From Alphaproteobacteria bacterium (GTDB lineage: Bacteria > Pseudomonadota > Alphaproteobacteria > RF32 > CAG-239), in NCBI GenBank assembly GCA_045126755.1, contig JBGVOY010000025.1:1-40355 (forward strand): DNA of 40,355 bases, in the 5' to 3' direction. Of this stretch, positions 3,476 to 31,402 are shown in pieces. The stretch's first letter is position 1; each line of letters starts with the position of its first letter. The notes below the pieces were generated by a model, which was not told the DNA's origin, made no database searches, and was given only the letters and a program-made list of their open reading frames with translations. A program made the translations under genes and the position numbers.

Positions 3476-3700
3476 ATTTGTCCTTTATTGGATGATGATA
3501 CATACATTCTTCATAAAATTCAATATAAGAATAGTTTATTTAACAGATTCTTTAGGCTTATTTAAAATATGAGAAAATTAACACCTTTGATTTTTAACCA
3601 TACAGCCACGTCGCAGGGATTTTATGACAAGTTGCATATATTTTGCGACCATCCGCACTCAAAACGCAGGGAAACTAAGGGAAATAATATATAAAATTAA

Positions 3701-3997: not shown

Positions 3998-4000
3998 TTT

Positions 4001-4423: not shown

Positions 4424-4775
4424 ATTTCTTTTTCCTTATCAAATATATAAACAGACTATGACAGTTTTATCAATTTTTCAAGTGTATATTTCCTTTTTCC
4501 ATATAAAAACCATCGTATATTTTTTGTAAATTAGAATTTACACCCCAGAAAATATTTTAACAAGTTATTGATTTTATGAAAAAATGAGGCTTTATGATTT
4601 TATCAACTCAGACAACAAAAATGTACTACCTAAATCAGACACCGCATCAAACATCTCCTAATATCATTATCTTACAAGCTATATAACGAAAAAACAAAAA
4701 AATCTAGTTTATAATGTTTTTTTAATTAGTTTTACATAGTATTGATAATAAAGGTAAGACATAGAGGAATATAAT

Positions 4776-11002: not shown

Positions 11003-11041
11003 GTAAATACCGGAAAAACCGTATATCAACCTGAAAGATAA
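11003..11041 (+). pseudogene. Remnant of a deaminase paralog (3' end; possibly a collapsed gene from ~10945)
   Basis: 34 of 39 nt are identical to 16676-16714, the 3' end of the deaminase CDS. All five differences are synonymous, so it still encodes VNTGKTVYQPER-stop. An in-frame stop lies 7 codons upstream. There is weaker, gapped similarity of 10945-10997 to 16205-16250, including an identical caatgcaaaa 10-mer. Confidence 0.55.
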
Positions 11042-11052
11042 TAGGCTCTAAC

Positions 11053-11089
11053 AAAAAAAACTCTTGCTTTATTAGCAAGAGTTTTTTTT
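11053..11089. terminator. Bidirectional hairpin terminator
   Basis: AAAAAAAACTCTTGCT-TTAT-TAGCAAGAGTTTTTTTT lies directly downstream of the minus-strand hydrolase gene. Confidence 0.75.
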
Positions 11090-11090
11090 G

Positions 11091-11882
11091 TTACATACGT
11101 TGCAACCAATTATAAATTAATTCTGGAGTTTCTTCTGCCCAAAAAACCTCTCGATGCCCCTTTTCTGCCAACAAATGCAACTCTGCGTTATTTTTTCTTT
11201 GTTCGTATAATATTTTTGCATGATGGACAGGAACTAAAGTATCAGTAGTTCCGTGAATAATTAAAATCGGTGCTGTAAATTTTTGAATAGTTTTTTCAGA
11301 TGGATAATCATCTTTTAATATCCAATTAGAAAATGGATATTTTTCTGCAACCAAGCGAGATAATGATGCAAAAGGAGAAATTAGAGCCAATCCATCAACA
11401 TTTCTTTTGCTTGACAAACCAATTGAAGCAGCACACCCAAATGAATTTCCGATAACAATTATTTTGGAATATCCTCTCTTTTTAATCCAATCATATATCT
11501 CTGCTCCGTCTGAAAACATTTTATCTTGATTTATTTTACCTTCTGAATTGCCATATCCTCTATATTCAGCTAAAAAAACTCCATATCCATCTTTACTAAA
11601 ACGCATTATTTGAGGTGCAAATTCTGCAATTTGCCCACGATTACCATGAAAAAATAATATAGCAGGAAAATTCTTATCACCATCTTTTATCCATGTCATA
11701 ATTTTTGTACCATCAGACATGGTTAACATATTTTCGCTAACATCATTTAAATTGGCTTTTTGTGGTGAAATATAGTCTTTATCAGGCTTAAACAACAATT
11801 TATCTTGCATTAGAAATAAAGTTGTTAAATATAAAATAAATAAGCAAACAACACCACTTAACAAACAAACAATCTTTTTCAT
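11091..11882 (-). CDS. Membrane-anchored alpha/beta hydrolase (BEM46-like)
   Basis: N-terminal TM segment, FFHGNRG, nucleophile elbow GNSFG, and C-terminal D...GH. Confidence 0.8.
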   Translation of the reverse strand: MKKIVCLLSGVVCLFILYLTTLFLMQDKLLFKPDKDYISPQKANLNDVSENMLTMSDGTKIMTWIKDGDKNFPAILFFHGNRGQIAEFAPQIMRFSKDGYGVFLAEYRGYGNSEGKINQDKMFSDGAEIYDWIKKRGYSKIIVIGNSFGCAASIGLSSKRNVDGLALISPFASLSRLVAEKYPFSNWILKDDYPSEKTIQKFTAPILIIHGTTDTLVPVHHAKILYEQRKNNAELHLLAEKGHREVFWAEETPELIYNWLQRM

Positions 11883-12061
11883 ACATTATCCTTTTATTAA
11901 CAGGAAACAAAGCACAAATACAAAGTATGCTTAAAACACTTTTGACATATATTTGTATCAGACAATAGCGAATGTCAATAAATAACTTGATATTTTTCAA
12001 TTTTTATGATATTTACACACCATTAAAATTCTTATCCTACAATGCTCACAAACAGTATAAC

Positions 12062-12874
12062 ATGAAAAAATTTTATTTACTTGTTTTAACATTTATGCTT
12101 CTCGGTTGTTCATTCTTAAGCAGTGAGCGAAGTGTTTTGTTACAAAATAATCAAGGACAATCTATATATGTTAAAATCCATAATAAAACCGGTAGTAAAT
12201 TAGCATTTATCTTACATGGTTTAGCTTCTGATATGAATCATCAAGTTGTGCAATCGGCCAAAAAAGCTTTTTTAGATAACGGATATACTGTTGTTACTTT
12301 TGATGCCAGATATTCTTTAGGTAAAAGTTATGGTAACGTTTCTAATGCTTCTTTAAATACATTTTTAGAAGATTTAGAAACTGTTGTAAACTGGGCTAAG
12401 GAACAAGATTTTTACCATGAACCATTTGCCGTTGCCGGACATTCACTTGGAGGCGCCGCAACTATTTTATATTCTCATAACAATGATAATATAAATTTTT
12501 TAATACCCGTTGCACCGGTTGTCGGCGGACAACAGTGGGAAAATTCATGTATGAACAACATGCCTGATTTTTGTAAACAATGGAAAGAAAAAGGTTATTA
12601 TGAATATAAACTAAAGGAAAAATCTGCAAACATTTTTTACACAGTCGTTGATAATGCAAAATCGTATAACGCATTAGAATTGGCACAAAACATTAAAACT
12701 CCTACATTATTTGTTATTGCAGAAAAAGATAGAGTAATTGAAGAAAAAGATGTGAAAAAGCTTGCAGATATAATGAATGCAAAGATTGCAAAAATCTCTC
12801 AAAGCACACACAATTTTACAACGAATAAAAATCAAAACGATTTATATCAAGCTATTTATGACTTTATAAAATAA
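12062..12874 (+). CDS. Lipoprotein alpha/beta hydrolase
   Basis: MKKFYLLVLTFMLLGC carries a lipobox and GHSLGG is the nucleophile elbow. The track start at 11972 was trimmed to the ATG at 12062. Confidence 0.8.
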   Translation: MKKFYLLVLTFMLLGCSFLSSERSVLLQNNQGQSIYVKIHNKTGSKLAFILHGLASDMNHQVVQSAKKAFLDNGYTVVTFDARYSLGKSYGNVSNASLNTFLEDLETVVNWAKEQDFYHEPFAVAGHSLGGAATILYSHNNDNINFLIPVAPVVGGQQWENSCMNNMPDFCKQWKEKGYYEYKLKEKSANIFYTVVDNAKSYNALELAQNIKTPTLFVIAEKDRVIEEKDVKKLADIMNAKIAKISQSTHNFTTNKNQNDLYQAIYDFIK

Positions 12875-12877
12875 TTA

Positions 12878-13438
12878 CTATACCAAATTATCTATATTGT
12901 CTTTTGCTTTTGCTAAAATATCTTCCACATTATTACCGTAAACATCCAAACCTTCGGCTTTTATTAAAACAACATCTTTTATTCCATAAAATATCTTACT
13001 TAAAGCTTCGATATACTTGAAACCAAAATCATCAGGACCATATCCGCCTTTAGTTGTTACATAATAAAGTTTTTTAGCTTTACATAACGAAACTATTTCA
13101 CCTTTTGCAGAATAATCAAATACTACCTTTAAAACATTTATATACTCAAAAAAAACTTTTAACATTGATGGAAAAGACAAATCCCAGTAAGGTGCAGCAA
13201 CAACAATAATATCTGATTTTGCAAAATCTTTGGCATATGAAAACACTTTATCATTAAAGTTTCTCTCTGATATTAACTTATCTCTTTTTTGCAAAATACT
13301 ATCATCAACAGGTGCTATTTTTTCTTCAGTCAGCACTATTTCTTTGACCTCACCACCGATTTTATTAACCAAATAATCAGCTAATATTTTTGTTCGTGAA
13401 TTTTTTCTTATGCAAGAATTGATATAAAATGTCTTCAT
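12878..13438 (-). CDS. Flavodoxin-like-fold NAD(P)H oxidoreductase (AzoR-like)
   Basis: 186 aa. VAAPYWDLSFPSMLK resembles the AzoR/flavodoxin-like FMN-binding segment. Confidence 0.7.
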   Translation of the reverse strand: MKTFYINSCIRKNSRTKILADYLVNKIGGEVKEIVLTEEKIAPVDDSILQKRDKLISERNFNDKVFSYAKDFAKSDIIVVAAPYWDLSFPSMLKVFFEYINVLKVVFDYSAKGEIVSLCKAKKLYYVTTKGGYGPDDFGFKYIEALSKIFYGIKDVVLIKAEGLDVYGNNVEDILAKAKDNIDNLV

Positions 13439-13613
13439 GTTATTCTCTTTAAATGTTTTATTTTACATAAATATATTATCTGCAGTAATTTTTTTCAACA
13501 GTTAATTTGAGTAACAGCAATTAATTTGTAGAGCGCAATCCCCTCATCTTCTCACAACATCATCCGGTTCAAATTCATTGAAAAAACGGTGGGGCAAAAC
13601 CAAAAAATATGAG

Positions 13614-13674: not shown

Positions 13675-14103
13675 ATGAAGAATATTACATTTGCAGAAGT
13701 CAAAGATGCTTGCCAAATTATTGCTGATAAAATTAAATCTGAAAACCCGGAAAAAATTACAATTGCAGCAGTTTCTCGCGGAGGACTTATTCCGGCAACC
13801 ATAATATCACACTTGCTCGGAATTAAAGATATCAGATTTATCAGACTATCCTCTTATACAAATGACCATCAACAATCTGAGCTTATTGATACAACTTGTG
13901 ATGATGTCCTTAATGAAAAAACGACATACATAATAGATGATATTTGTGACAGTGGTGAAACACTACTCTACTTGCGCAAAAAATATCCGTTGGCAAAACT
14001 TTACACCGTTATAAATAAAAACCCGACAATAAAACCAGATTTTGCAGCAATCACAGAGCCTATGGGTTTATGGATAACATTCCCTTGGGAAACTATTGAA
14101 TAG
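13675..14103 (+). CDS. gpt: Xanthine-guanine phosphoribosyltransferase
   Basis: It has AVSRGGLIP, SSY, a PRPP loop YIIDDICDSGETL and C-terminal FPWE, and is collinear with E. coli Gpt as I recall it. Confidence 0.85.
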   Translation: MKNITFAEVKDACQIIADKIKSENPEKITIAAVSRGGLIPATIISHLLGIKDIRFIRLSSYTNDHQQSELIDTTCDDVLNEKTTYIIDDICDSGETLLYLRKKYPLAKLYTVINKNPTIKPDFAAITEPMGLWITFPWETIE

Positions 14104-20160: not shown

Positions 20161-20481
20161 CTACACTTCATTTAATAACGGAATAATGTTAATAACCGGT
20201 GTTTCATACGGGTGCACTTCTTTTATAGCCTTTAGTGTTTGCTCTAAATTAAGCGTTTCTACTCTTACCTCTATCTTCAACTCTTCTTCCCGGCTTATTT
20301 CAAGAGGCTTTCCTATGTATGGTTTTGCGTTTTCTAACGAACGCCATGTGCCCATAACCTTGCTGTAAGATAAACAACTGTCATAGTTTCCGATATGGCC
20401 GGCATCTACATTTTGTAAGGCAGTTTGTAATTCTTTCAAATGTGTTTCGGGTATAAATATTTCCAATTTACAAAATTTCAT
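20161..20481 (-). CDS. YqfO-like small protein (NIF3-associated/CutA-like fold family)
   Basis: 106 aa. It has FIPETHL...AGHIGNYDSC...HPYETPV, which resembles the YqfO/NIF3-insert-domain family as I remember it. Confidence 0.55.
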   Translation of the reverse strand: MKFCKLEIFIPETHLKELQTALQNVDAGHIGNYDSCLSYSKVMGTWRSLENAKPYIGKPLEISREEELKIEVRVETLNLEQTLKAIKEVHPYETPVINIIPLLNEV

Positions 20482-20685
20482 CTTTTCCCTTTTGAACGTT
20501 ACTTGTTAATCGATTTTTTTATTTTCATACATTTTGTTAAAATTATCAAGACTGTTTATAATATTCTTCCTGCCAAATAGACCAAAAACTATTATAATAT
20601 TGTTTGATTATTAATTAGTATGTATGTCCTCCCACCTTGGCAAGTAAGACCAAAGGACTAACGCCAAAATTAACTTATATTTATT

Positions 20686-21459
20686 ATGCAAACAATTTTC
20701 GACAGAGCCGGTTTTGAGTATGCTCTCATCGCAAACTGCGCAATCACAGACGGTTTAACCAGTTATGTAACATTCAAGGAAGATGGAACTCCTGTTGTCA
20801 TCCGTAACGGACAGCCTGTTCTCTCAAGCTTTTTCACCGACGGCAACGGACGTTGGGGCAAATTGATTAACTCTACAGACCCAAAGAAAGTTGAAAAGGT
20901 CATGAAGAAGGCAGAGAATCACGTTATCGCGTTACATAACGGTGAACTTGTTTGCCAGCTTGTACCTCTTACAGGTATTGTTTGGCACGATGACATGGGA
21001 AATAAGTTCTACCTCATTTCTCGTTTCGAAAGAGAAGAGTTGGAGGCTGATAACCTTGCCTATGTAACAGCTGAAAGCGAAGGCACTTACGAAACCATAA
21101 AGTACATCGCATACAACGGAACAGAATTTATCGATGTTCCTCGTTATCTCTATAATGAGAAAAACAAGAGATTCACCGCTGGCGCTAACTTCAAGGCTAT
21201 GGCTTACGCCGAAATGCGCAGACGTGGTAATGCCTCAATCGCTGTGAAGAACGGCGCACGTAAGGTTTATGCCCGTCTGAGTGAGAAAGGCGAATATATC
21301 ATGGCACACACTCAGGGCGCTTATGAGGCTCAGAAGCTTGGCGATGAAGGTAGCTACTTTGTGGAATACTGCGACAGCACCAGTGGAGGTTGGAATGTTC
21401 CAATGGACGAGTTCCCAAAAAGATATCAGATTTATTCGCCTGTCCTCTTATGCCAATAA
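20686..21459 (+). CDS. G+C-rich foreign-looking ORF of unknown function whose last ~13 codons read out-of-frame gpt-derived sequence (chimeric 3' end)
   Basis: 257-aa ORF. Two 60-nt lines counted by hand give 26/60 (20761-20820) and 30/60 (21241-21300) G+C, against 9-20/60 in typical lines elsewhere. From 21419 onward the DNA is homologous to gpt. Confidence 0.6.
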   Translation: MQTIFDRAGFEYALIANCAITDGLTSYVTFKEDGTPVVIRNGQPVLSSFFTDGNGRWGKLINSTDPKKVEKVMKKAENHVIALHNGELVCQLVPLTGIVWHDDMGNKFYLISRFEREELEADNLAYVTAESEGTYETIKYIAYNGTEFIDVPRYLYNEKNKRFTAGANFKAMAYAEMRRRGNASIAVKNGARKVYARLSEKGEYIMAHTQGAYEAQKLGDEGSYFVEYCDSTSGGWNVPMDEFPKRYQIYSPVLLCQ

Positions 21460-21688
21460 TCATCAACAATCCGAACTGATTGATACAACTTGTGATGATA
21501 TACCTGATGCTAAAACAACATACATTATAGATGATATTTGCGACAGCGGTAAAACCTTACTGTATTTACGCAAAAAATATCCGTTGGCAAATAATTATGT
21601 TCTTATCAACAAAAATCCAGACATAAAACCTGACTTTGCTCCAATAACCGAACCAAGTGATTTATGGATTAACTTTCCTTGGGAATAG
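21419..21688 (+). pseudogene. 5'-truncated paralog of gpt (C-terminal ~90 codons, frame intact)
   Basis: It encodes KDIRFIRLSSYANNHQQSELIDTTCDD...TTYIIDDICDSGKTLLYLRKKYPLA...FPWE-stop. It is collinear with gpt residues ~51-141 (13825-14103) at roughly four-fifths nucleotide identity by eye. No N-terminal part and no start codon are present. Confidence 0.8.
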
Positions 21689-21754
21689 GCAAAAAACATA
21701 AAAAAATAATATTCACGGATATGATAAAATAACTTTCTGTTTACGGCCTTTATA

Positions 21755-22027
21755 TTATTTGCTTATTAACTGATACCCTTTTTGCCAAACAGTGCGTATA
21801 CACTGTTTTCCTTTTCCCGCTTGATTAACCTTTTTTATAAGCTTGCTGATTATAACTCCAACAATTTTTATTTCCGGTTTTTCATCAAATTCTGTTTGTA
21901 AACAAGTAAATATTTCCTCTTTACTTACAACTTGTCCTTTTTTTGATAATAACAGTTCAAAAGTAACATATTCTTTTTTTGATAAATATATAGTTTCTTT
22001 GTTTATTGTAATTTCAAATTTTTCCAT
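21755..22027 (-). CDS. Stand-alone OmpR/PhoB-type winged-helix DNA-binding protein (no receiver domain)
   Basis: 90 aa. It has LSKKEYVTFELLLSKKGQVVSKEEI...VIISKLIKKV...IRTVWQKGYQL, which matches the trans_reg_C pattern. Confidence 0.7.
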   Translation of the reverse strand: MEKFEITINKETIYLSKKEYVTFELLLSKKGQVVSKEEIFTCLQTEFDEKPEIKIVGVIISKLIKKVNQAGKGKQCIRTVWQKGYQLISK

Positions 22028-22096
22028 TACTTTATCCTTCCCTGAAGCGCTACGTTAAATTATAATAAAAAAACATCTGACACAACTTGTCATACG

Positions 22097-22741
22097 CTAC
22101 TTTTTTATTGACTTTATAATTTCTTTAATTTGTGAATTAACTTTAAAAGACTCTCTTATTTTTTGCAGGGCTTTGTTATAAGTTTTTACATTTAAACCGC
22201 ATTTTTCAGATTGTAAATATCCCAAACAAATATCCGGATATTTTCCCATTATGGTTGCTATGGCCCAAGCTATTCCCATTTGAGCATAATACTTATCGGC
22301 ATTAAGCTTTTCTAAGACATCAATAACTTTGTGTATGTAGCTGTCATTTAAGAAATGCGATAACATTATTACAGAAACAATCCTACTTTCAAACTCTTTA
22401 TCACTGTTTTTATATTGCATCAAATAATTCCATACAATTTCCGGATATTTTCGAGCTATTTTAAAACTTTGACACAGTGAATCATTTACGGCCCAATCTT
22501 GCACGTATGGAACAAAATCCGCAAAATATTTGAGTAATATGTTTATATCGTCTTTTGCATACCCTAACACGAAAGCATGAAGTAATTTAAGTTCAAAAGT
22601 TTCAAACTTATTATTATCCAAAAATTCTTTATAATCTTCTTTGGCAATCTGTTTGGCAAATTTTTTAAGTTCCGGAACCGATATTCCGAAAGAAGTTCTT
22701 TTTATGTTGTTTAGTTTATGTTTTATATTTGTTAAATTCAT
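22097..22741 (-). CDS. DNA alkylation repair protein (AlkD-like HEAT-repeat glycosylase family)
   Basis: WAVNDSLC and the helical-repeat character fit the family. AAGGA lies 7 nt upstream of the ATG at 22741; the track start at 22807 was trimmed. Confidence 0.7.
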   Translation of the reverse strand: MNLTNIKHKLNNIKRTSFGISVPELKKFAKQIAKEDYKEFLDNNKFETFELKLLHAFVLGYAKDDINILLKYFADFVPYVQDWAVNDSLCQSFKIARKYPEIVWNYLMQYKNSDKEFESRIVSVIMLSHFLNDSYIHKVIDVLEKLNADKYYAQMGIAWAIATIMGKYPDICLGYLQSEKCGLNVKTYNKALQKIRESFKVNSQIKEIIKSIKK

Positions 22742-22936
22742 TTTTATATCCTTATTAAAAGATACTAATACAATATTATTGCAACAACAAGCTATTTTTA
22801 TAAACATTGTGCTTTATAAATATAAAATTATTTCTGCTCGCAGTTATCGGATAAACAACTTGACAATTTAAGATAAAAATAATATAAACAGAACAATTTA
22901 ATTACATTATTGTTTAACTAAATTATTGTTTGTCCT

Positions 22937-23359
22937 ATGAAACTTAAAGGTTTAATTCTTATTCCGTCACGATTTGACGATCCTGAAATCAAGTTTGATT
23001 TGTCTTCTTTTATCGTCAATATGGATGATAACAGCCAAATGGAACTTGACTTGCTGCATGTAAACTGCCCAACACTTGCAAGTATGGCCGATGCAGTATC
23101 AGAGTATTTTACGGAGGTAATTCAGCGCCAACCGACTCAAGAAAATGTCTTGATGGCAACTTACCTCGGAATGATTGACATGCTGCTCAGAGACTATCCT
23201 AACGGTTTTCCGATTAGACAGGATATTTTAAATATCATACATCAGGAACCGGAGTTTAGGCATATTCAGAGCCATACCGGTTACTATTACCAGTTTAACA
23301 TGAGCGACTGGGACGCTGCCAAAAAAGCTGTTATGGTAGAAATGCACGTAATCCGCTAA
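22937..23359 (+). CDS. Hypothetical protein
   Basis: 140-aa ORF with visibly higher G+C, followed by a terminator. I recognise no motif. Confidence 0.6.
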   Translation: MKLKGLILIPSRFDDPEIKFDLSSFIVNMDDNSQMELDLLHVNCPTLASMADAVSEYFTEVIQRQPTQENVLMATYLGMIDMLLRDYPNGFPIRQDILNIIHQEPEFRHIQSHTGYYYQFNMSDWDAAKKAVMVEMHVIR

Positions 23360-23370
23360 TCAAACGAAAG

Positions 23371-23400
23371 AACCCTACGTAAAGCGTAGGGTTTATTTTA
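23371..23400 (+). terminator. Rho-independent terminator
   Basis: AACCCTACG-TAAAG-CGTAGGGTT followed by a T-rich tail. Confidence 0.7.
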
Positions 23401-23479
23401 TGTATAAGCCAACCATTAAAGCTCCTTAATAATTACGGTTTTAATCGCATTAGGACATAAACACCTTTTAGTTAATATG

Positions 23480-24298
23480 TTATATGTTTTTTACGCTTAA
23501 TATCATTGAAATTGTGTGTTTTTCATTAGGAGCAAGAGTGATAAAATTATCTCCATTATTGGAAGGTTCAACACAAATAAAATGTTTATATTGACCGGAT
23601 GTTGCCTCCTTTACATCTTTATCGGGATTCCAAACAACCGTAGAATTTGAGCCTTTCTTTTCAAGCTCTATAACTCTTTTTAGTTCATTATCAATAATTT
23701 CTACTCTCCCTAAATGGTTGATAAAAGAAGCATCAAACTCCTCTCTGATGACTAAATCATCCTCCAGTGTATATAATTTACCGTCAAGTGCATTTTTATA
23801 TTGATATCCCTTCAGACCTTTTATTTCTATGTTATCTCTTGAACTTACATAAAAATATGAATGAAGTGCTTCACTGAAAACAAAATCTTTATCTCCCAAG
23901 TTTGTTGTTTCTAAACTACATTCAAACTTATCGGTTATCTTAATAAATAAATTAGCACAAACATTAGCATTATATTGTTTATCGGGTAATAAACACAGAT
24001 GGGCCGTAATTTTTGTTTCATCAACGTATATATCTTTTAACTTCCATTCAGAGATTCGGGCAAAACCGTGTCTTGGAAAATCCGAATTTAATTGTTCTTG
24101 AGCAAATCGAGGCCAACACACCGGTATTCCTCCTCTAATTGCCTGAATATTATCAAATTCATTTAAATCTCCAAGCCAAAACACGTCATATTCTTGATTT
24201 TTAGGACGATATGATAAAACGTTACCGCCAAAAAGCGATATTTTACATTCCGCCATTGTATTTTCTATTGTTATAACACCTTTATTAACCGTATACAT
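23480..24298 (-). CDS. Aldose 1-epimerase family protein (D-hexose-6-phosphate mutarotase, YeaD-like)
   Basis: It has RGGIPVCWPRF and FPRHGFAR. AAGGA lies 8 nt upstream of the ATG at 24298. The track start at 24355 is a TTG. Confidence 0.8.
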   Translation of the reverse strand: MYTVNKGVITIENTMAECKISLFGGNVLSYRPKNQEYDVFWLGDLNEFDNIQAIRGGIPVCWPRFAQEQLNSDFPRHGFARISEWKLKDIYVDETKITAHLCLLPDKQYNANVCANLFIKITDKFECSLETTNLGDKDFVFSEALHSYFYVSSRDNIEIKGLKGYQYKNALDGKLYTLEDDLVIREEFDASFINHLGRVEIIDNELKRVIELEKKGSNSTVVWNPDKDVKEATSGQYKHFICVEPSNNGDNFITLAPNEKHTISMILSVKNI

Positions 24299-24376
24299 AA
24301 ATAAATCCTTGTAATATTTTTTCACATTTTCCCGTAAACGAGGGATGATTGTCAATATATTTTTCTTTTATGGCAC

Positions 24377-24411
24377 AAAAAAGCCTCGACATAAAATATC
24401 CGAGGCTTTTT
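24377..24411 (-). terminator. Rho-independent terminator after aas
   Basis: AAAAGCCTCG (24379-24388) pairs with CGAGGCTTTT (24401-10). A T-run follows on the minus strand. Confidence 0.75.
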
Positions 24412-24424
24412 AATGTTAAATATA

Positions 24425-26614
24425 TTAACTTGCTTTTTTAAGTTCTTGTTGCTCCAGTTCTTCAAGAACTTCTCTTTTCAAGGTAATATTGTCTGTTTTA
24501 CCTGTTGCAAATGTCGGTATACTATCACGATACAATATTATACGAGGCATAAACAGTTCGGATAAACCATTATTTTTAACATATTCGTGTAAAACATCTT
24601 GTTTTACTTGTTTATTAGTGGTTACCAAAACAATTTGTTCACCTTTGCTTTCATGAGGAATTGCAACGACACCGTATTCAAAATCAGGTCCCATCCATTC
24701 GTATGCTTTAATAACCATTTCCAAAACAGCAGTTAATGATACCATTTCACCACCTATTTTTGCAAAACGTTTGATACGGTCACGAATATATATAAAGCCG
24801 ATTTCATCGATTTCTACCACATCTCCGGTCTTATACCAACCGTCTTCCGGCGGAACCAACACGCCCGGATTATCAGGCATATAATATCCTAACATCACAT
24901 TAGGTCCTTTAACCCAAAGCTCACCGCCTTTATCAATTCCGGGAACCGGTTCAATTTTATACTTCATGGCAGGAAGTAACTTACCGATTGAACCGAATCT
25001 GTTAAATACACTGTTGTTTCCGGTAACCACAGGCGAACATTCGGTTGAACCGTATGCTTCCATCATTCTGATACCCATGCGTTCCATCCACATATTACGT
25101 GTATCAAGTTTAACAGCCTCTGCACCACCATACATAAAGCGAACATTATGGAAATCATACGGGTGAGCTATTTTGCCATAACCTCTGAAAAACGTATCTG
25201 TTCCGAATATGATAGTTGCACCTAATTCATAAACAAGCTCGGCAATAACACGATAATGTAAAGGCGAAGGATACAAGAACAGGCGGCTTCCTTCAAATAA
25301 TGGGAATAATGTTCCTACCGTTAAACCGAAACTATGGAACATAGGCAACGCATTAAACACTAAATCTGTTGTGTTAAGAGTTTCAAGAGCAGCTAATTGC
25401 TTTATGTTTGAGACTATGTTAGCATGGCTCAATACAACTGCCTTCGGGGCTCCCTCAGAACCTGATGTAAACAAGATAACCGCTTTTTTGCTTCCGCCGT
25501 CTTTATGCGGAACACGTTTAATCTTGTAACGTAAAAATGCACCTATTTTAGCTGTTAAGCTGATATATTTTGCCATAGATTCTAAGTAAAATACTTCTAC
25601 ACCGTTAGCTTTTAATACTTCCACAACAGATTCAAGCTTAGCTGTTCTTACAAATGTCAAAGAAGTAATAACCATTTTTACTTGTGCTGTTTTGCACATA
25701 GACATAACGTTTTTGGCTCCGACAGAAAAATTAAGCATAACCGGAACTCTCTCGTATGCCGACAAACCGAAGAATGTGCAAACTGCAGCAATAGTGTTAG
25801 GCAACATCAATCCGATATGTTCAAAGTGAGTAGTTCTTTTTTTGAAGAACTTACCGATAACAAAAGATTTAATAATCAAATCTTTGAAAGAATTAGGCTT
25901 ACGATTGATGTCTTCAATAACTCGCGGACGTTTGAAAAAGAATCCTTTTTTAGAGTGGACTTTAGCCGTTTTCATAAGCTGAGCAAACAATGAAATATTG
26001 GGCTTGTAGTTAATTTCAAACTGCATATCACGTAAAATTGTGTAAACTTCGTTACTGATATGGTCACGTTGACGACGTAATTCATCTTTCAACTTAAACG
26101 GTCTAGGCTCGCCAACCGTAATACGCATCTTAGGAAGCGGACGATGAGGCAACTTTCCTTTGGTTTTTGAAAAATAGCCATATTGCGGACCATCAATCCA
26201 CACCGGAATAATCGGGGCTTTAGACTTATCCGCTACCAAACCGGGAGCTTCGTAAATTTTCATTAAGCCACCGCTTTCAGTAATACGACCTTCAGCAAAA
26301 ATAACAACCAAACGACCACTGTCAACTTTTGAAATCAACTCCTTAATATCCGATGGTTCAATCGGATTAAAAAGCATTATATCAGCATATTTCATCAAAT
26401 TGCGTATCCAATGACGACGATACAAGTGCCCATTTAATGCAAACACCGGATTACCGGGTAAAAATGCGTATAACAATAATGGGTCTAAATATGACACGTG
26501 GTTAGATACATACACACCCTTCTTAGGAAGTTTTTCCATATCAAAGCGGATTTTACATCTGCTTTTAAATAAGGTAAAGAATGTTCTTAAACAGAATTTT
26601 ACAAAGTTATTCAA
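24425..26614 (-). CDS. aas: Bifunctional 2-acylglycerophosphoethanolamine acyltransferase / acyl-ACP synthetase
   Basis: The N-terminal PlsC-type acyltransferase part has NHVSYLDP (HX4D) and FAEGRITESGG. The C-terminal AMP-dependent synthetase part has ILFTSGSEGAPKAVVLSH. Apparent TTG start. Confidence 0.85.
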   Translation of the reverse strand: MNNFVKFCLRTFFTLFKSRCKIRFDMEKLPKKGVYVSNHVSYLDPLLLYAFLPGNPVFALNGHLYRRHWIRNLMKYADIMLFNPIEPSDIKELISKVDSGRLVVIFAEGRITESGGLMKIYEAPGLVADKSKAPIIPVWIDGPQYGYFSKTKGKLPHRPLPKMRITVGEPRPFKLKDELRRQRDHISNEVYTILRDMQFEINYKPNISLFAQLMKTAKVHSKKGFFFKRPRVIEDINRKPNSFKDLIIKSFVIGKFFKKRTTHFEHIGLMLPNTIAAVCTFFGLSAYERVPVMLNFSVGAKNVMSMCKTAQVKMVITSLTFVRTAKLESVVEVLKANGVEVFYLESMAKYISLTAKIGAFLRYKIKRVPHKDGGSKKAVILFTSGSEGAPKAVVLSHANIVSNIKQLAALETLNTTDLVFNALPMFHSFGLTVGTLFPLFEGSRLFLYPSPLHYRVIAELVYELGATIIFGTDTFFRGYGKIAHPYDFHNVRFMYGGAEAVKLDTRNMWMERMGIRMMEAYGSTECSPVVTGNNSVFNRFGSIGKLLPAMKYKIEPVPGIDKGGELWVKGPNVMLGYYMPDNPGVLVPPEDGWYKTGDVVEIDEIGFIYIRDRIKRFAKIGGEMVSLTAVLEMVIKAYEWMGPDFEYGVVAIPHESKGEQIVLVTTNKQVKQDVLHEYVKNNGLSELFMPRIILYRDSIPTFATGKTDNITLKREVLEELEQQELKKAS

Positions 26615-26631
26615 AGTTTTTCTCCGTCTGT

Positions 26632-26652
26632 TACAACATATATTGTGTTGTA
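26632..26652. promoter_or_regulatory. Candidate operator palindrome in the aas-fadL divergent intergenic region
   Basis: TACAACA-N7-TGTTGTA, a perfect 7-bp inverted repeat 18 nt upstream of the aas start. Confidence 0.3.
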
Positions 26653-26924
26653 TACAAAAAAGTTGTTTTTGTAAAGATAAAAAAAAGTATAGTGGATTAT
26701 TGAAAAAATACGCTTACCAACATATTGTTTTTGCGTTAAAAATAAAAAATTATCAACGTGTTTATATATTAGTGCTTGCATTTTATTTTTTTATTGTCTA
26801 TAACGCCCGAGTAACATATTATGTACATTTATTTCAAATATGCCGAAAATATACAAAACTATAATAAATAATAAATAAGGTATTTAATGCATATTAAGTT
26901 ACTTTGGATTAACAGAAAAAGTGA

Positions 26925-28172
26925 ATGAATAATATGAATAAAATTTTAACTTTAACAGCATTGGGAACTGTTTTATTAGCTGCCAATGCACAAGCTGCCG
27001 GTTTCCACTTACGTGAACAGTCAGCTGCAGCTCAAGGTAACGCTTTTGCAGGAGCAACAGCAGGTGCCGAAAACAATTCTTATGCTTATTTTAACGTAGC
27101 AGGTTTAACCAAACAAGAAGGAACTCAATTTAATATTGGCGGAACATATATTGCTCCTAAAGCAAGAGCCGAAAATGTTAAATATATTGATAACAGCGGA
27201 AATACTCAAAGAGGTTCTGATATTAACAATATTGTTCATGCCGCAGTTGCTCCCAATATGAACTTTTCTCATCAAGTTGATGAAAAAACTTTTTTGGGTG
27301 TTTCAATGAACGTTCCTTACGGTATGGTAACAAAATATGATAGAGATTGGGCAGGTTCTGACCATGGTATCACATCCAAAGTTACCGCTGTTACACTAAC
27401 TCCGATGGCTGCATACAAAGCAACCGATAAATTATCAATAGGTGCCGGTGTTCAATTACAATATATGAAAGCAAAATTAACCAATACTGCGCAAGCCGGT
27501 TTATTGCATACTCGCCTTGAGGGTGATACATTCGATATCGGCTATCAATTAGGTGCTTTGTATGAATTTAATAACAATACTCGTATCGGTTTAGGATACA
27601 GAAGCGAAGTTAAGCACAAACTTAAAGGTGAAATTGAGGCTTCAATGCCTTTACCAATGCTTAACCAAGATATCAGTGCACGATTAACAACTCCTGCCAT
27701 GGCTTCAATCGGTATTTTCCACCAAATGAACGAAAAATGGGCTGTGATGGCAGAATATCAACGTGTATTCTGGAGTTCTTTTGATTATCTTACCATTATG
27801 GGTAGTGATACGCAATCTCAAGTTTCACAAGTTAAAGAAAAATGGCGTGATACAAACTTCTTTGCCGTTGGTGCAAGTTATCAAATTGACAACCAATGGA
27901 AATGGCGTTTAGGTTTGGCTTATGACCAATCTGCCGTTCGCATGAAACACAGAACTCCGCGTATTCCGGACTCTGATCGTTTGTGGTATTCAACAGGTTT
28001 GAACTATCAATATAACGATAAGTTGAGTTTTGATTTGGCATACACATACATTTATGCCCACAAAGCTCACATGCACACAAAGAATATCACACCTGCTGAT
28101 CAAAACAGAGCATCCGTAGATTTTTCTAACTCTGTTCAGTTGTTTGGTTTTTCGCTTAATTACAAATTCTAA
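26925..28172 (+). CDS. fadL: Outer-membrane long-chain fatty acid transporter (FadL/OMPP1/TodX family)
   Basis: Signal peptide ending ANAQA, then AGFHLREQSAAAQGNAFAGATAGAENNS (FadL N-terminal hatch signature) and a C-terminal ...LNYKF. Confidence 0.85.
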   Translation: MNNMNKILTLTALGTVLLAANAQAAGFHLREQSAAAQGNAFAGATAGAENNSYAYFNVAGLTKQEGTQFNIGGTYIAPKARAENVKYIDNSGNTQRGSDINNIVHAAVAPNMNFSHQVDEKTFLGVSMNVPYGMVTKYDRDWAGSDHGITSKVTAVTLTPMAAYKATDKLSIGAGVQLQYMKAKLTNTAQAGLLHTRLEGDTFDIGYQLGALYEFNNNTRIGLGYRSEVKHKLKGEIEASMPLPMLNQDISARLTTPAMASIGIFHQMNEKWAVMAEYQRVFWSSFDYLTIMGSDTQSQVSQVKEKWRDTNFFAVGASYQIDNQWKWRLGLAYDQSAVRMKHRTPRIPDSDRLWYSTGLNYQYNDKLSFDLAYTYIYAHKAHMHTKNITPADQNRASVDFSNSVQLFGFSLNYKF

Positions 28173-28188
28173 ATTAAGCGTAATTTGA

Positions 28189-28219
28189 AAAAAATCCGGA
28201 TTTTCATCCGGATTTTTTT
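28189..28219. terminator. Bidirectional hairpin terminator between fadL and the radical SAM gene
   Basis: AAAAAATCCGGA-TTTTCA-TCCGGATTTTTTT. Confidence 0.8.
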
Positions 28220-28228
28220 ATGCTTATT

Positions 28229-29050
28229 CTAAAATTTCAGTTTATTTAAATGATAATCAACTAACTCTCCTCCGTAACAAACGACATTTGAAAATCCGTA
28301 ATCTAATTTTTTGGCATAAAATGTTATGGGCTTATCTGCATAAATCCATTCATATCTGTCAAAGAACTTTTCATCTTTTAACTTAAATTCAGCGCTTAAC
28401 ATCATTTTTTTTATAATTTCATCACTGTCTTTTTTGGTTAAAGCATTTTCTACAATCCATTTTGTATACGGATTTGAAAGATTATTATCTCTGGTATTTA
28501 AATTAAGTGTTTTAAGACTAACCGTTTTAATATTGGGATATGTATCCAAATATTGTTTTATTTCGCTTAAATATTCTTCAAATGATTTATTTTTAAGCAT
28601 TACATAATTTAAGCGCACATCAGCTTTTGAAAAATTTTTACAATTTAAATAATCCTGATTATATCCCAATATTTTCATATCTTTTTCAGGTGAAAAATCA
28701 ACACGCGTGATTTCAATTAAAAACTTATCTTTAATCAAATCAAGTTTTTCAGGTTCAAAGAAAATATTTCCCGATGACTGAAAGCGATATTCTTCAAACA
28801 TATCCGATGATGTAACCGTATCATAAACTTTCTTTATTGTTTCAAACGAATGCAGTGAAGGTTCTCCGTTACCGCAAAAAATGAAATACTTAAATGATAT
28901 ATTTTTTTCTTTTAAGAATTGTAAATTATATTTTAGCTTTTCAATCTTATCATCGACTAACGGCCATTTAGTGATTTTTGCCGTGCAATACGGACAATTT
29001 TTATTACACTTAAACGACGATAAAATGAGTTCAAATTCTTTATACTGCAT
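28229..29050 (-). CDS. Small radical SAM enzyme (no SPASM or other auxiliary-cluster Cys motifs)
   Basis: CNKNCPYC (CX3CX2C) at residues 15-22 and a GNGEP (GGEP-like) SAM motif. GGGAGAG Shine-Dalgarno sequence upstream. It overlaps the upstream gene by 11 nt. Confidence 0.8.
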   Translation of the reverse strand: MQYKEFELILSSFKCNKNCPYCTAKITKWPLVDDKIEKLKYNLQFLKEKNISFKYFIFCGNGEPSLHSFETIKKVYDTVTSSDMFEEYRFQSSGNIFFEPEKLDLIKDKFLIEITRVDFSPEKDMKILGYNQDYLNCKNFSKADVRLNYVMLKNKSFEEYLSEIKQYLDTYPNIKTVSLKTLNLNTRDNNLSNPYTKWIVENALTKKDSDEIIKKMMLSAEFKLKDEKFFDRYEWIYADKPITFYAKKLDYGFSNVVCYGGELVDYHLNKLKF

Positions 29051-29555
29051 AACACTCTCCCTTTAACAATTTTTTGATGATTAAACTAATTTCATCATAT
29101 TTTTGATATTTATAAACTTTGATTTTGTTACTTTTTTGCATTGCATTTGCAATAGCAAACCAATATTCAGACTTGATGGCATAATTTCCTTCTTCCTCTT
29201 TATAAAGTATAATGATTTCTTTATTTTGTTCTATTGCCCAGCCCAACTCGACAACTGTTCCTACCGAAAAGCTTTCACTGAAGACGCAGACAAAAGTCTG
29301 GCTGTTTTTAACAGCCTCAAATTCGGCATTTAACACTGTGTTGCAATCTGTTGAGGTATAATTTCCTTTTGATGCCTCTTCACAATAAAAAGGGCCCGAA
29401 TAAATAAAACTGTTATCAACAATCAAATTCGGTTGTGCAAAGGCCAAATCGGTTGCACTTCCGAGCAACAATGCTCTGTAATCGTATGACAAAGCATCCG
29501 GTAAAATTGTATTTTTGCTTTTATTAAATTTACCGCTAAAATAAACTCTTTTCAT
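29040..29555 (-). CDS. Nucleoside 2-deoxyribosyltransferase / Rcl(DNPH1)-like Rossmannoid protein
   Basis: RVYFSGKF (like the N-terminal iYlAGp motif) and SVGTVVELGWAIEQNKEIIILY (like the GT..E.G.A catalytic-Glu segment). There is a 4-nt ATGA overlap with pnuC-like. Confidence 0.65.
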   Translation of the reverse strand: MKRVYFSGKFNKSKNTILPDALSYDYRALLLGSATDLAFAQPNLIVDNSFIYSGPFYCEEASKGNYTSTDCNTVLNAEFEAVKNSQTFVCVFSESFSVGTVVELGWAIEQNKEIIILYKEEEGNYAIKSEYWFAIANAMQKSNKIKVYKYQKYDEISLIIKKLLKGECYAV

Positions 29556-30103
29556 TTCGCATAACCCTTCATTATTTTATTCCAATAAACATAAGAAATT
29601 ACAGCCAGAAATGTCCATAAAACATTTAAGCTCAATAAACAGATAGCCGTTTTTTCTAAAAATACGTATTCAATTACATAAAAAATATCGTTTACAAACC
29701 AGATAAACCAAGTATCAATTTTTCTTACAACCATATAATATGTCGCAAATAAAGATGATATGCTGGTAAATGAATCTAAAAATGGTAAGGGGTCATTGGT
29801 TTTCTTTAACAATAAAGCCCCTAAAAATGTCCCGATTAAAATCAAAAACCCGTATATAAGTCTTTCTTTACTGTTGCAAACAGATATTTTAAGTTCTTTT
29901 TTTGTGTTCCACAGAATATATCCGCTAATTCCGAAAAATACATACAAAAGAGAATTTATCGTATCTCCGTATAAGCGATTTGTATATGAAAACACCAATA
30001 AACAAGCCATTTGCAGAATATAAAACACCCAATTACTGCGTTTGTTAAAAAGCACAAAAATGCTTTGCAACAAACCAAAGGCTGTTGCCCATATTTCGAA
30101 CAT
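29552..30103 (-). CDS. pnuC: PnuC-family nucleoside-type vitamin transporter (substrate not assignable)
   Basis: About 7 TM segments. It has DPLPFLDSFTSISSLFATYYMV.RKIDTWFIWFVNDIFY, matching the PnuC PFLD...W..W..N/D signature. Confidence 0.8.
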   Translation of the reverse strand: MFEIWATAFGLLQSIFVLFNKRSNWVFYILQMACLLVFSYTNRLYGDTINSLLYVFFGISGYILWNTKKELKISVCNSKERLIYGFLILIGTFLGALLLKKTNDPLPFLDSFTSISSLFATYYMVVRKIDTWFIWFVNDIFYVIEYVFLEKTAICLLSLNVLWTFLAVISYVYWNKIMKGYAK

Positions 30104-30114
30104 ACATTAAACTC

Positions 30115-31308
30115 CTAGTCTATCGGATTATTGTCTGCATAGTTATCAAAATAGCCTTTTATCAAAATAACCGGAGTTCCTTTATCGCCCGAACCGCTGG
30201 TTAAATCGCACAGAGAACCCAATAAATCGGTAATTTTACGCGGAGTTGTGCCGATTGAATAAAAACCGTCTGCGGATTTCTTTTCCGATATTGCTTTTTT
30301 GACTGCTTCTGTAGGGTTATCTACGTTATTATCAGCCACCGCCTTTATTTTAATTTCATTTGGCATACCTTCCAAACCTTTAGTATACCCCGGAGACACG
30401 ACAGGATCGGCAAATTCCCATATTTTTGTGTTAGGACATTTAAACCCGCCATCGCCATAAATCATTACCTCTATATGTTTACCGGTCTTATCCTTCAACA
30501 TCTTTTGCAAATTGAGGCAAAATCTTTCACAATCCCTCGGAAATAATTTTAACCGGTTACTGTCAGAATAGTTTGAACCTAATAAACCAAACTCACTCCA
30601 TCCTCTGTTTTTATCGGGTAAGTTACATATTTCATCTAATGTAAACGCAGTAGCTCCTGCCTTAATTAAAATTTGCTTTTGACGATGACGAACGTGTATA
30701 CTTGAAACAATTACCTGATGAGTAAATTTTAATATGTCTTTAGGATTATTTAGCAATACAACCTCTATATTGGGCGCAATATCTTCATACATTCGAATAT
30801 GGTCTGAACCTGTTATTGGATGATGAAAAACACCAAATTTTTCACGAAAATCTTGCTTTGTAATAATATCCGTATACGGATTTATGTCCGATTCAAATAA
30901 TTTATCCTCATCCATTATGGCATTTCCCACTTCATCTGCAGGATATGAAAGGCATACATACACTTTACCGCTTACACCTTTGGCTATTCCTTCCAAAATT
31001 TTTGCAAATCTGTTTCTTGATAAGATAGGAAATGCAACCGCTACATCGCCTTGCGGAAATTTTTTTGCAACATCATTTGCAATATCTTCTATGGTAACAA
31101 AATTGCCCTGAGCTCTGGCTAAAAAAGATTCCGTTATACCGATAATATCACGATTATTTAATTGTATAGGCTGATAATCGGAGTTTTTTGCTTCAAGCAA
31201 TGTATCAACAATAATGCTTGATATATCTGCTCCTTGAGTAATAATCGGCATTCTGATACCATAAGCCGATGTTCCGACATAACGAATATTAAAATTTTTT
31301 TTATTCAT
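30115..31308 (-). CDS. CofE-like (F420-0:gamma-glutamyl ligase superfamily) protein with an extra internal region
   Basis: It has PIITQGADIS...DIIGITESFLARAQG, GLLGSNYSD, IYGDGGFKCP and LTSGSGDKGTPVILIKGY, collinear with CofE motifs as I recall them. AGGAG lies 7 nt upstream of the ATG at 31308. The track TTG start at 31338 is rejected. Confidence 0.65.
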   Translation of the reverse strand: MNKKNFNIRYVGTSAYGIRMPIITQGADISSIIVDTLLEAKNSDYQPIQLNNRDIIGITESFLARAQGNFVTIEDIANDVAKKFPQGDVAVAFPILSRNRFAKILEGIAKGVSGKVYVCLSYPADEVGNAIMDEDKLFESDINPYTDIITKQDFREKFGVFHHPITGSDHIRMYEDIAPNIEVVLLNNPKDILKFTHQVIVSSIHVRHRQKQILIKAGATAFTLDEICNLPDKNRGWSEFGLLGSNYSDSNRLKLFPRDCERFCLNLQKMLKDKTGKHIEVMIYGDGGFKCPNTKIWEFADPVVSPGYTKGLEGMPNEIKIKAVADNNVDNPTEAVKKAISEKKSADGFYSIGTTPRKITDLLGSLCDLTSGSGDKGTPVILIKGYFDNYADNNPID

Positions 31309-31402
31309 ATTTTTTCTCCTTGACAGTAGGTTAATCAACTTTGGTTTGTCTCGACTGTCCCTACAAGACCCAAACCGATAGAGAAGCTTTTTTTAACTTC
31401 TT

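What the first reader, a model, noticed from the sequence alone, without database searches (positions are those of the whole stretch)
20630..21688. G+C-rich foreign ORF joined abruptly to a 5'-truncated gpt paralog: recombination junction or assembly chimera
Seen in sequence: 20686 to about 21418 is far richer in G+C than its surroundings. Hand counts give 26/60 and 30/60 in two lines, against 9-20/60 elsewhere. It encodes a 257-aa protein with no motif I recognise. At 21419 the DNA switches, without any spacer, into sequence homologous to gpt codons ~51-141 (13825-14103). The foreign ORF then terminates 13 codons later in a wrong gpt frame. The gpt-derived frame remains open to its natural stop (FPWE-stop) but has lost its N-terminus and start. 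Inference: foreign DNA (composition reminiscent of Bacteroidota-like genomes) was inserted into, or recombined with, a second gpt copy and truncated both partners. Alternatively this is a metagenomic misassembly.
Basis: partly seen in the sequence, partly recalled or inferred. Interest (0 to 1): 0.65.

Follow-up and report, generated by a model that had tools for sequence, protein, structure and literature searches.

The report
Recombination scar: two truncated genes
A real break-and-join scar in an uncultured cattle-gut alphaproteobacterium fuses the front two-thirds of an unknown-function gene to the back two-thirds of a purine-salvage gene, leaving two dead fragments; other strains of the same species still carry the salvage gene intact at this spot, so it is an ordinary pseudogene-forming event, not an assembly error or Bacteroidota DNA.

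Summary
20686-21418 has 45.7% G+C against 32.4% for the window. At 21419-21429 the DNA switches into the 3' part of a gpt-like phosphoribosyltransferase gene.

- **Not a chimera.** The junction is spanned by contigs from at least eight independent runs or assemblies, each with its own SNPs.
- **The G+C-rich ORF.** It is the first ~248 codons of a ~390-aa protein family with no known domain or solved fold. The family was found only in rumen/gut Alphaproteobacteria, the window's own lineage. In all 19 loci examined the gene is 4-13 points richer in G+C than its flanks. High G+C is therefore a family trait and does not point to Bacteroidota.
- **The gpt fragment.** It is codons 51-139 of "gpt2". 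This 139-aa gene is intact at exactly this locus in other strains of the same species (L023-L025, X17, X18; right flank 99.4% identical).
- **The join.** A 94%-identical full-length relative, seen in metatranscriptomes, shows that the join lies in an 8-nt microhomology, GATATCAG (21422-21429).
- **Both pieces look dead.** The gpt piece lacks its start and its SRGG loop. The truncated ORF shows 5 nonsynonymous to 2 synonymous strain SNPs, against 38:113 in control genes.

Best reading: a microhomology-mediated illegitimate recombination at the edge of a strain-variable region. Whether the DNA was imported or rearranged internally is unresolved. Interest is low.

The parts
20617..20685 (+). Native 5' leader of the ~390-aa family gene. 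It contains a conserved hairpin: GTCCT at 20626-20630 pairs with AGGAC at 20654-20658.
   Evidence: The leader is nearly identical in L002-L004 upstream of their full-length genes. A G-C to A-U compensatory change occurs in the stem. There is no Rfam match. An RNA contig of X24 covers 20656-20678.
20686..21429 (+). Codons 1-248 of a ~390-aa conserved hypothetical protein family. This is the 5' two-thirds of the gene; the 3' ~145 codons are missing.
   Evidence: 33 homologues, 49-70% identical over 96-98% of the query, nearly all 385-446 aa long. No Pfam, NCBIfam or PHROG match. GC 0.457. RNA contigs 94% identical continue past 21429 as ..RYQ|FYGADEQGRA.
21422..21429 (+). Crossover microhomology GATATCAG, shared by the family gene and gpt2.
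   Evidence: Intact gpt2 in L023 reads ..GGAATTAAGGATATCAG|ATTTATTCG. The full-length family relative reads ..CCAAAAAGATATCAG|TTCTACGG. The window has A at 21421 (family state), where gpt2 has G.
21430..21459 (+). Out-of-frame tail of the truncated ORF. It is gpt2 DNA read in the wrong frame: 9 codons plus the TAA stop.
   Evidence: ORF list and translation.
21419..21688 (+). 3' remnant of gpt2: codons 51-139 plus the stop of a 139-aa XGPRT-like phosphoribosyltransferase. It lacks the start, promoter and SRGG loop.
   Evidence: 100% aa identity to residues 51-139 of P0156. 98.7% nt identity to L023 10151-10523. Pribosyltran domain, profile positions 57-151 only. dN/dS against gpt1 is 0.08 with dS 1.4.
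   Evidence: PF00156, E 7e-11. NCBIfam xanthine PRTase, 78 bits. Its upstream context (abhydrolase, abhydrolase, FMN_red) matches a sister species, L035.
21791..22049 (.). 259-nt segment holding most of a 90-aa Trans_reg_C gene (21755-22027, minus strand). It is present in fusion-type strains and absent from intact-gpt2 strains.
   Evidence: L023 and L025 join 21790 directly to 22050. The same joint is seen in X17 and X18. Pfam Trans_reg_C, E 6e-14.

Best explanation
**What it is.** This is the right-hand scar of a microhomology-mediated illegitimate recombination in an uncultured rumen/gut alphaproteobacterium.

**Ancestral state (shown).** It still circulates in the same species. An intact 139-aa gpt2 sits immediately upstream of the DNA-alkylation-repair gene.

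**Fusion lineage (shown).** Everything left of gpt2 codon 51 is different DNA. That DNA ends inside a ~390-aa lineage-specific gene at codon 248. The two were joined at the 8-nt overlap GATATCAG.

**Result.**
- A 257-aa open frame made of the family N-terminus plus a 9-residue nonsense tail.
- A promoterless, start-less gpt2 3' fragment in the +1 frame. It lacks the SRGG pyrophosphate loop.

**Inferred.**
- Both pieces are non-functional remnants.
- gpt function is covered by gpt1, 7.3 kb upstream, which lies within the DNA found only in fusion-type strains.
- The high G+C of the ORF is a constant property of this family. The likely cause is codon usage of a strongly transcribed gene. It is not a mark of distant origin.
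- The joining mechanism was most likely homology-facilitated illegitimate recombination of imported DNA from a related alphaproteobacterium. An internal deletion or rearrangement cannot be excluded.
For: **Junction is real**
- Contigs span 21419 in X2 (21104-21900), X3 (21272-21654), X1 (21360-21900), X4 (21374-21900), X6 (20980-21459) and X15 (21356-21506).
- L022 from another sample is colinear at 99.0% over 21.9 kb and calls the same 257-aa ORF.

**Intact gpt2 allele at the same locus**
- P0156, L023, L024 and L025 carry it.
- L023 10151-10523 equals window 21419-21790 at 98.7%. L023 10523-20255 equals window 22050-31783 at 99.4%.
- X17 and X18 contigs run from 21422 leftward into ..GCTCATTTGCTCGGAATTAAG.
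- DNA left of the junction is unrelated between the two alleles.

**Microhomology**

**Truncation of the family gene**
- 31 of the 32 homologues other than the window's own protein are 385-446 aa; one 328-aa sequence lacks its N-terminus. The alignment stops at KRY.

**Relaxed constraint on the truncated ORF**
- Strain SNPs are 5 nonsynonymous to 2 synonymous, against 38:113 in neighbouring genes (Fisher p = 0.017).
- Near-invariant P79 and V165 are replaced in the window.

**gpt2 was functional until recently**
- dN/dS against gpt1 is 0.08.
- Only 2 synonymous differences separate the fragment from intact gpt2.

**G+C is a family trait**
- The gene is +0.04 to +0.13 above its flanks in 19 of 19 loci.
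- Gene GC tracks host GC (r = 0.76). The window's residual is +0.036, or 1.6 SD.
- Only the family gene yields RNA contigs of 150 nt or more in metatranscriptomes laid on 7 kb of L003 and on 20300-21900 of the window, apart from one 165-nt contig in X25 at 21610-21774.

**Precedent**
- HFIR joins use 3-10 bp microhomologies (PMC6382021).
Against: - The left end of the strain-specific DNA was not reached. Import versus internal rearrangement is therefore not settled.
- The parental full-length family gene was seen only as 94%-identical RNA contig fragments. The exact donor sequence at the crossover is inferred.
- The 257-aa frame is still open in every strain seen. Its promoter and leader are intact. 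AlphaFold gives the N-terminal ~200 residues pLDDT of about 90 as a compact part. A residual function of the truncated protein is not excluded.
- The SNP test rests on only 7 sites.
Confidence: 0.82

Rival explanations
1. Internal rearrangement, with no imported DNA. The ancestor carried the full-length family gene, gpt1 and gpt2 on one chromosome. A large deletion or inversion with end points in the 8-nt microhomology joined them. Intact-gpt2 strains later lost the gpt1 region.
For: - It would produce the same junction anatomy.
- G+C of window 14-20.6 kb (0.32-0.37) is typical of the genome.
- The region is rearrangement-prone. There is a 2.6-kb indel upstream of gpt1 and a 259-nt indel downstream.
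Against: - L023 has no family gene within 10 kb left of gpt2.
- Intact-gpt2 samples X17 and X18 show no contigs of 95% identity or more over window 10-20 kb, and none of 88% or more over 20.1-21.4 kb.
- The exact gpt1 protein was found in 9 samples, none of which is among the 3 samples with intact gpt2.
- No full-length family protein above 70% identity is in the 5.8-billion-protein collection.
Confidence: 0.3
2. Metagenomic misassembly: two unrelated contigs were joined by the assembler at a shared k-mer.
For: - The window is a MAG contig.
- In X5 a contig begins exactly at 21422. This shows a graph branch there.
Against: - Six Logan assemblies from several studies and one ENA MEGAHIT assembly cross the junction, with their own SNPs.
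- The overlap is 8 nt, far below assembler k-mer sizes.
- The branch in X5 is explained by the two alleles occurring together.
Confidence: 0.01
3. A functional new gene. Either the 257-aa protein works as a stand-alone N-terminal domain, or a +1 ribosomal frameshift near CCAAAAAGA yields a family-PRTase fusion protein.
For: - The ORF is open in all strains and its leader and promoter are intact.
- The N-terminal ~200 residues are confidently modelled.
- The gpt frame is open from 21281.
Against: - The excess of nonsynonymous SNPs and the loss of near-invariant residues.
- The PRTase fragment lacks the first 50 residues, including the SRGG loop.
- C CCA AAA is a -1 type slippery site, whereas the gpt frame needs a +1 shift (read from the sequence).
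- No homologue has this architecture.
Confidence: 0.04
4. Site-specific integration of a mobile element into gpt2, with the fragment being the displaced gene end at an att site.
For: - The left regions carry island-type genes: T5orf172/ResIII in the window, and HsdR and a DnaB_C/AAA_25 protein in L023.
- A full gpt copy lies 7.3 kb to the left.
Against: - No integrase or recombinase lies near the junction.
- gpt1 is uniformly about 77-80% identical to gpt2 along its whole length. It is not a host/element hybrid.
- The other partner is a broken protein gene, not an element end.
Confidence: 0.04

Closest known systems
Homology-facilitated illegitimate recombination (HFIR) junctions in naturally transformable bacteria (de Vries & Wackernagel 2002; Prudhomme 2002; Meier & Wackernagel 2003, as summarised in PMC6382021)
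   Same: - A novel joint forms at a short microhomology: 8 nt here, 3-10 bp in HFIR.
- Recipient DNA is lost (the gpt2 5' part and its upstream region) and non-homologous DNA is gained.
- Both genes at the joint are truncated.
   Different: - The homologous anchor on the other side was not seen.
- Competence, RecA dependence and the donor are unknown.
- A purely internal microhomology-mediated deletion would look the same at this end.
Xanthine-guanine phosphoribosyltransferase (Gpt/XGPRT; NCBIfam NF006613; type I PRTase, Pfam PF00156)
   Same: - gpt1 and intact gpt2 are 139-142-aa type I PRTases.
- Both have the SRGG loop and the PRPP motif (YIIDDICDSGxT).
- Their best family match is XGPRT.
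   Different: - Scores are far below the equivalog cut-off (78 against 138 bits).
- The window's second copy is only residues 51-139 and cannot be an enzyme.
~390-aa conserved hypothetical family of rumen/gut Alphaproteobacteria (e.g. NCBI 'hypothetical protein J6039_03570', P0023)
   Same: - The window's ORF aligns from residue 1 to the invariant R-Y, at 49-70% identity.
- It keeps all 40 invariant columns that lie in that part.
- It shares the same conserved leader as L002-L004.
   Different: It lacks the C-terminal ~145 residues, including the near-invariant CIPQWGD...NPQVN...YACSY block.

Membership tests
Type I phosphoribosyltransferase / XGPRT (gpt) | Match to the Pribosyltran domain (PF00156) above the gathering score | tested here: not met
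   The fragment 21419-21685 scores 21.9 bits against a cut-off of 26.3 and covers profile positions 57-151 only. gpt1 scores 42.1 bits and passes.
Type I phosphoribosyltransferase / XGPRT (gpt) | PRPP-binding motif (acidic pair followed by a small-residue loop) | tested here: met
   TYIIDDICDSGKT is present in the fragment and identical to intact gpt2.
Type I phosphoribosyltransferase / XGPRT (gpt) | N-terminal core strand and pyrophosphate (SRGG) loop; own start codon | tested here: not met
   Intact gpt2 and gpt1 have ..AAVSRGGLIPAT.. at residues 31-42. The fragment begins at residue 51.
Type I phosphoribosyltransferase / XGPRT (gpt) | NCBIfam equivalog score for xanthine PRTase (NF006613, cut-off 138 bits) | tested here: not met
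   gpt1 scores 78.2 bits and the fragment 35 bits. 'gpt' is therefore a likeness, not a proven orthology.
~390-aa rumen/gut alphaproteobacterial hypothetical family | Full-length architecture (~385-446 aa) with the conserved C-terminal block | tested here: not met
   The window's copy ends at family residue ~251.
~390-aa rumen/gut alphaproteobacterial hypothetical family | N-terminal sequence homology, including the invariant residues | tested here: met
   E 1e-63 to 1e-118, 96-98% of the query covered; the invariant columns include the window's sequence.
HFIR / microhomology-mediated illegitimate recombination | Short (3-10 bp) microhomology exactly at the novel joint | tested here: met
   GATATCAG is shared by intact gpt2 and by the full-length family relative.
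HFIR / microhomology-mediated illegitimate recombination | Homologous anchor at the other end of the acquired segment | not testable with these tools
HFIR / microhomology-mediated illegitimate recombination | Acquired DNA comes from another lineage | tested here: inconclusive
   - The 10-21.4 kb block is absent from intact-gpt2 samples.
- gpt1 is only 77% identical to gpt2 and has the sister-species context.
- No donor genome was identified.

The most novel reading that the evidence does not exclude
The broken ORF is a window onto an undescribed protein family. The family is ~390 aa, restricted to rumen/gut Alphaproteobacteria, and matches no Pfam, NCBIfam or PHROG model and no solved fold. 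It is consistently the G+C-richest gene of its neighbourhood, the gene of its neighbourhood best represented in metatranscriptome contigs, and always preceded by a conserved structured 5' leader that has no Rfam match. If that leader is a new cis-regulatory RNA and the protein is an abundant new-fold component of these bacteria, the family is the real discovery, not the scar.
Probability: 0.3. Interest if true: 0.55.

Novelty: new member of a known kind. Interest (0 to 1): 0.22.

Why it matters
**The scar itself.** It matters little for biology: two pseudogene remnants at the border of a strain-variable region.

**What it is useful for.**
- It is a clean natural example of illegitimate recombination. 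Both the ancestral and the derived alleles still circulate in cattle and pig gut samples, and the crossover is resolved to 8 nt.
- It is a caution that a sharp G+C step in a MAG need not mean a chimera or distant horizontal transfer.

**The by-product may be worth more.** The orphan ~390-aa family, with its conserved leader and apparently high transcription, could merit follow-up in these uncultured gut Alphaproteobacteria.

Tried and rejected
I could not look for a second family copy or for the left boundary in the window's own genome.
- The look-up of encoding contigs with the window's own 257-aa protein found nothing.
- One look-up was wasted because I trimmed the start instead of the stop of a minus-strand gene. 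It was repeated correctly.
- tblastn of 12 window neighbour proteins against the 19 family loci gave no hit. The family gene has no conserved neighbourhood, and no gpt lies next to it anywhere.
- The sister species L020 (ArgRS 89% aa) is syntenic only from 32.8 kb rightward, so it was of no use for the junction.
- Function of the family was not found:
  - Pfam, NCBIfam and PHROGs gave no match better than E 0.04.
  - A PDB sequence-profile search gave nothing below E 0.49.
  - Foldseek against PDB gave nothing below E 0.3.
  - BFVD gave only uncharacterised viral proteins matching ~150 residues (best E 1.5e-6).
- A hybrid gpt1 (host 5' part plus element 3' part), as expected for an integrating element, was rejected. 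gpt1 differs from gpt2 evenly along its length.
- A programmed -1 frameshift at C CCA AAA was rejected because the gpt frame is +1.

Full report
**1. Observation**

Window 20686-21418 has GC 0.457 and GC3 0.47. The whole window has GC 0.324. The other 28 ORFs of 150 aa or more have mean GC3 0.255, with a maximum of 0.351.

From 21419 the DNA aligns without gaps to 13825-14091 of the 142-aa phosphoribosyltransferase gene at 13675-14103. Identity is 78.7% nt and 73/89 aa.

The 257-aa ORF (20686-21459) ends shortly after the switch. The gpt reading frame is +1 relative to it and stays open to ...FPWE-stop at 21688.

**2. Organism**

- The window's ArgRS has 84-100% identical relatives. The named ones are 'Alphaproteobacteria bacterium' MAGs.
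- Earlier notes on this genome also call it a gut alphaproteobacterium.
- The runs holding the sequence are bovine, pig and other gut metagenomes.

**3. The junction is not an assembly artefact**

Logan contigs of independent runs cross 21419:

| Run | Span |
|---|---|
| X2 | 21104-21900 (4 SNPs) |
| X3 | 21272-21654 |
| X1 | 21360-21900 |
| X4 | 21374-21900 |
| X6 | 20980-21459 |
| X15 | 21356-21506 |

The left edge is crossed in X2 (20300-20780) and X3.

An ENA assembly of another sample (L022/L026) is colinear with the window at 99.0% over 21.9 kb. It has the same 257-aa ORF called.

**4. What the G+C-rich ORF is**

It is the N-terminal part of a ~390-aa family. There are 33 proteins, 49-70% identical, covering 96-98% of the query. 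Nearly all are 385-446 aa long.

The alignment runs from residue 1 to the invariant R250-Y251 and then stops. The conserved C-terminal third is missing, including CIPQWGD, NPQVN and YACSY.

The family has no Pfam, NCBIfam or PHROG model and no PDB sequence relative. An AlphaFold model of P0002 has mean pLDDT 78.8, with about 90 over the first ~200 residues. It finds no PDB fold below E 0.3. In BFVD it finds only uncharacterised viral proteins over ~150 residues.

All 17 loci in GTDB species genomes are rumen/gut Alphaproteobacteria or 'proteobacterium' MAGs.

**5. The high G+C is a family trait**

- In 19 of 19 loci with full-length genes, the gene exceeds its flanks by 0.038-0.132 in GC.
- In 11 of 19 loci it has the highest GC3 of all ORFs in the locus. 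Gene GC tracks host ORF GC (r = 0.76, p = 2e-4).
- The window's value is 0.036 above the regression line, which is 1.6 SD.
- In metatranscriptomes, RNA contigs of 150 nt or more landed only on the family gene when laid on 7 kb of L003.
- On 20300-21900 of the window they landed only on the ORF part. The one exception is a 165-nt contig in X25 at 21610-21774, on the gpt2 3' end and downstream DNA.
- This fits strong transcription and codon bias, but only qualitatively.
- Nothing points to Bacteroidota.

**6. What the gpt fragment is**

A search with the 89-aa fragment found P0156, a 139-aa protein whose residues 51-139 are 100% identical to it. Its contigs are L023 (21 kb), L024 and L025. They place it at the same chromosomal locus.

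- L023 10151-10523 equals window 21419-21790 at 98.7%.
- L023 10523-20255 equals window 22050-31783 at 99.4%.
- This stretch runs through the DNA-alkylation gene, the aldose epimerase gene, the acyl-AMP ligase gene, FadL and the NAD-salvage operon.
- Homology starts at gpt2 codon 51.
- To the left, L023 has two FMN-reductase genes, a DnaB_C/AAA_25 gene, hypotheticals and HsdR. None of these is related to the window's left side.
- Runs X17 and X18 carry the same intact allele.

The species is therefore polymorphic. The allele with intact gpt2 is ancestral for this gene.

The fragment differs from intact gpt2 by 2 synonymous sites. It differs from gpt1 with dN/dS 0.08 and dS 1.4. gpt2 was thus a long-standing functional gene that was cut recently.

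**7. The crossover**

- Intact gpt2 reads GGAATTAAG GATATCAG ATTTATTCG.
- RNA contigs in X22-X24 are 94% identical to 20752-21429. They differ at 34 codons, 22 synonymous and 12 nonsynonymous. They continue after 21429 with TTCTACGGAGCAGACGAGCAAGGTAGAGC, which reads ..RYQ FYGADEQGRA. That is the normal continuation of the family.
- Both parents share GATATCAG (21422-21429). The window has the family's A at 21421.
- An 8-nt microhomology is typical of illegitimate recombination. HFIR joints use 3-10 bp (PMC6382021).

**8. Are the pieces alive?**

The gpt piece has no start, no promoter, and lacks residues 1-50, which include the SRGG loop. From what is known of type I PRTases, it cannot fold as an enzyme.

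The truncated ORF keeps its leader and stays open. However, the seven strain polymorphisms inside it are 5 nonsynonymous to 2 synonymous, against 38:113 in the neighbouring genes (Fisher p = 0.017). The window itself has H for the near-invariant P79 and A for the near-invariant V165. I read both pieces as young pseudogenes.

**9. How it arose**

*Shown:* a join at a microhomology, loss of the gpt2 5' part with its upstream DNA, and different DNA to the left.

*Inferred:* import of DNA from a related alphaproteobacterium, with one illegitimate end. The support is as follows.
- The block at about 10-21.4 kb is not seen in the intact-gpt2 samples X17 and X18.
- The exact gpt1 protein occurs in nine samples. 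None of them is among the three samples holding intact gpt2.
- gpt1 is only about 77% identical to gpt2.
- gpt1 carries the abhydrolase, abhydrolase, FMN_red upstream context found in a sister species, L035.

An internal deletion or rearrangement remains possible, at roughly 0.3. The left boundary could not be reached.

**10. Verdict**

This is a real but ordinary recombination scar with two truncated genes.

- 'Chimera' and 'Bacteroidota-like foreign DNA' do not stand.
- The most interesting by-product is the orphan, apparently highly transcribed ~390-aa family with its conserved leader hairpin.

Noticed in passing
window 20617-20685; L002 6174-6244; L003 5865-5935; L004 2301-2371: The family gene carries a conserved ~55-nt leader, GTCCTCCCACCTT(A)GGCAAGTRAGAYYAAAGGAYTAAYGCC. 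It has a stem GTCCT/AGGAC that shows a G-C to A-U compensatory change. There is no Rfam match. Other subfamilies have different conserved leaders: ...CGAGAGA...CCTGAAAGGGAG in L001, L006, L007, L012, L014, L016 and L018, and a GCCC-GAAA-GGGC hairpin in L008-L011, L015, L017 and L019.
   Followed up: partly
window 21791-22049: A 259-nt segment holds most of a stand-alone 90-aa winged-helix (Trans_reg_C) gene. It is present in all fusion-type assemblies and absent from the intact-gpt2 assemblies where this site could be checked (L023, L025, X17, X18). The gene's last 12 codons lie in the shared DNA, so the intact-gpt2 lineage probably deleted it. Each allele would then carry one derived change.
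   Followed up: partly
window 11011-13612: A 2.6-kb block holding two alpha/beta-hydrolase genes and an FMN-reductase gene upstream of gpt1 is missing in other fusion-type strains. X2/L027 jumps from 11010 to 13613 with about 280 nt of other sequence between. L026 also lacks the block, while L028 has it.
   Followed up: no
window 24425-26614 vs L021 607-2721: The 729-aa acyltransferase + AMP-binding gene is called as two genes (67 aa and 628 aa) in the 99%-identical assembly L021/L022. It is intact in L023. This is either a strain frameshift or an assembly error.
   Followed up: no
runs X6/X7, contig of 1933 nt laid on window 21419-21685: Another organism in the same samples has an intact gpt that is 87% identical to the fragment, closer than gpt1 at 79%. 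Similarity stops exactly at the coding-region ends. X6 and X7 look like one data set filed twice.
   Followed up: no
window 1-4500 and L023 1-8400: Both alleles have different defence- or island-type genes left of gpt. The window has T5orf172 + ResIII helicase. L023 has type I HsdR and a DnaB_C/AAA_25 protein. They share only one small gene, 97% identical in protein (L023 64 aa; window ORF 3701-3997, 98 aa). The gpt locus seems to border a strain-variable island.
   Followed up: partly
P0002 model (family residues ~350-393): The family's conserved C-terminal tail (GIPKxxISASNLSNFLxETLGVP...) is predicted with low confidence, as loose helices. The proteins have no N-terminal signal peptide. Given the large VirB-type secretion system noted earlier in this genome, a C-terminal export signal is conceivable but untested.
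   Followed up: no
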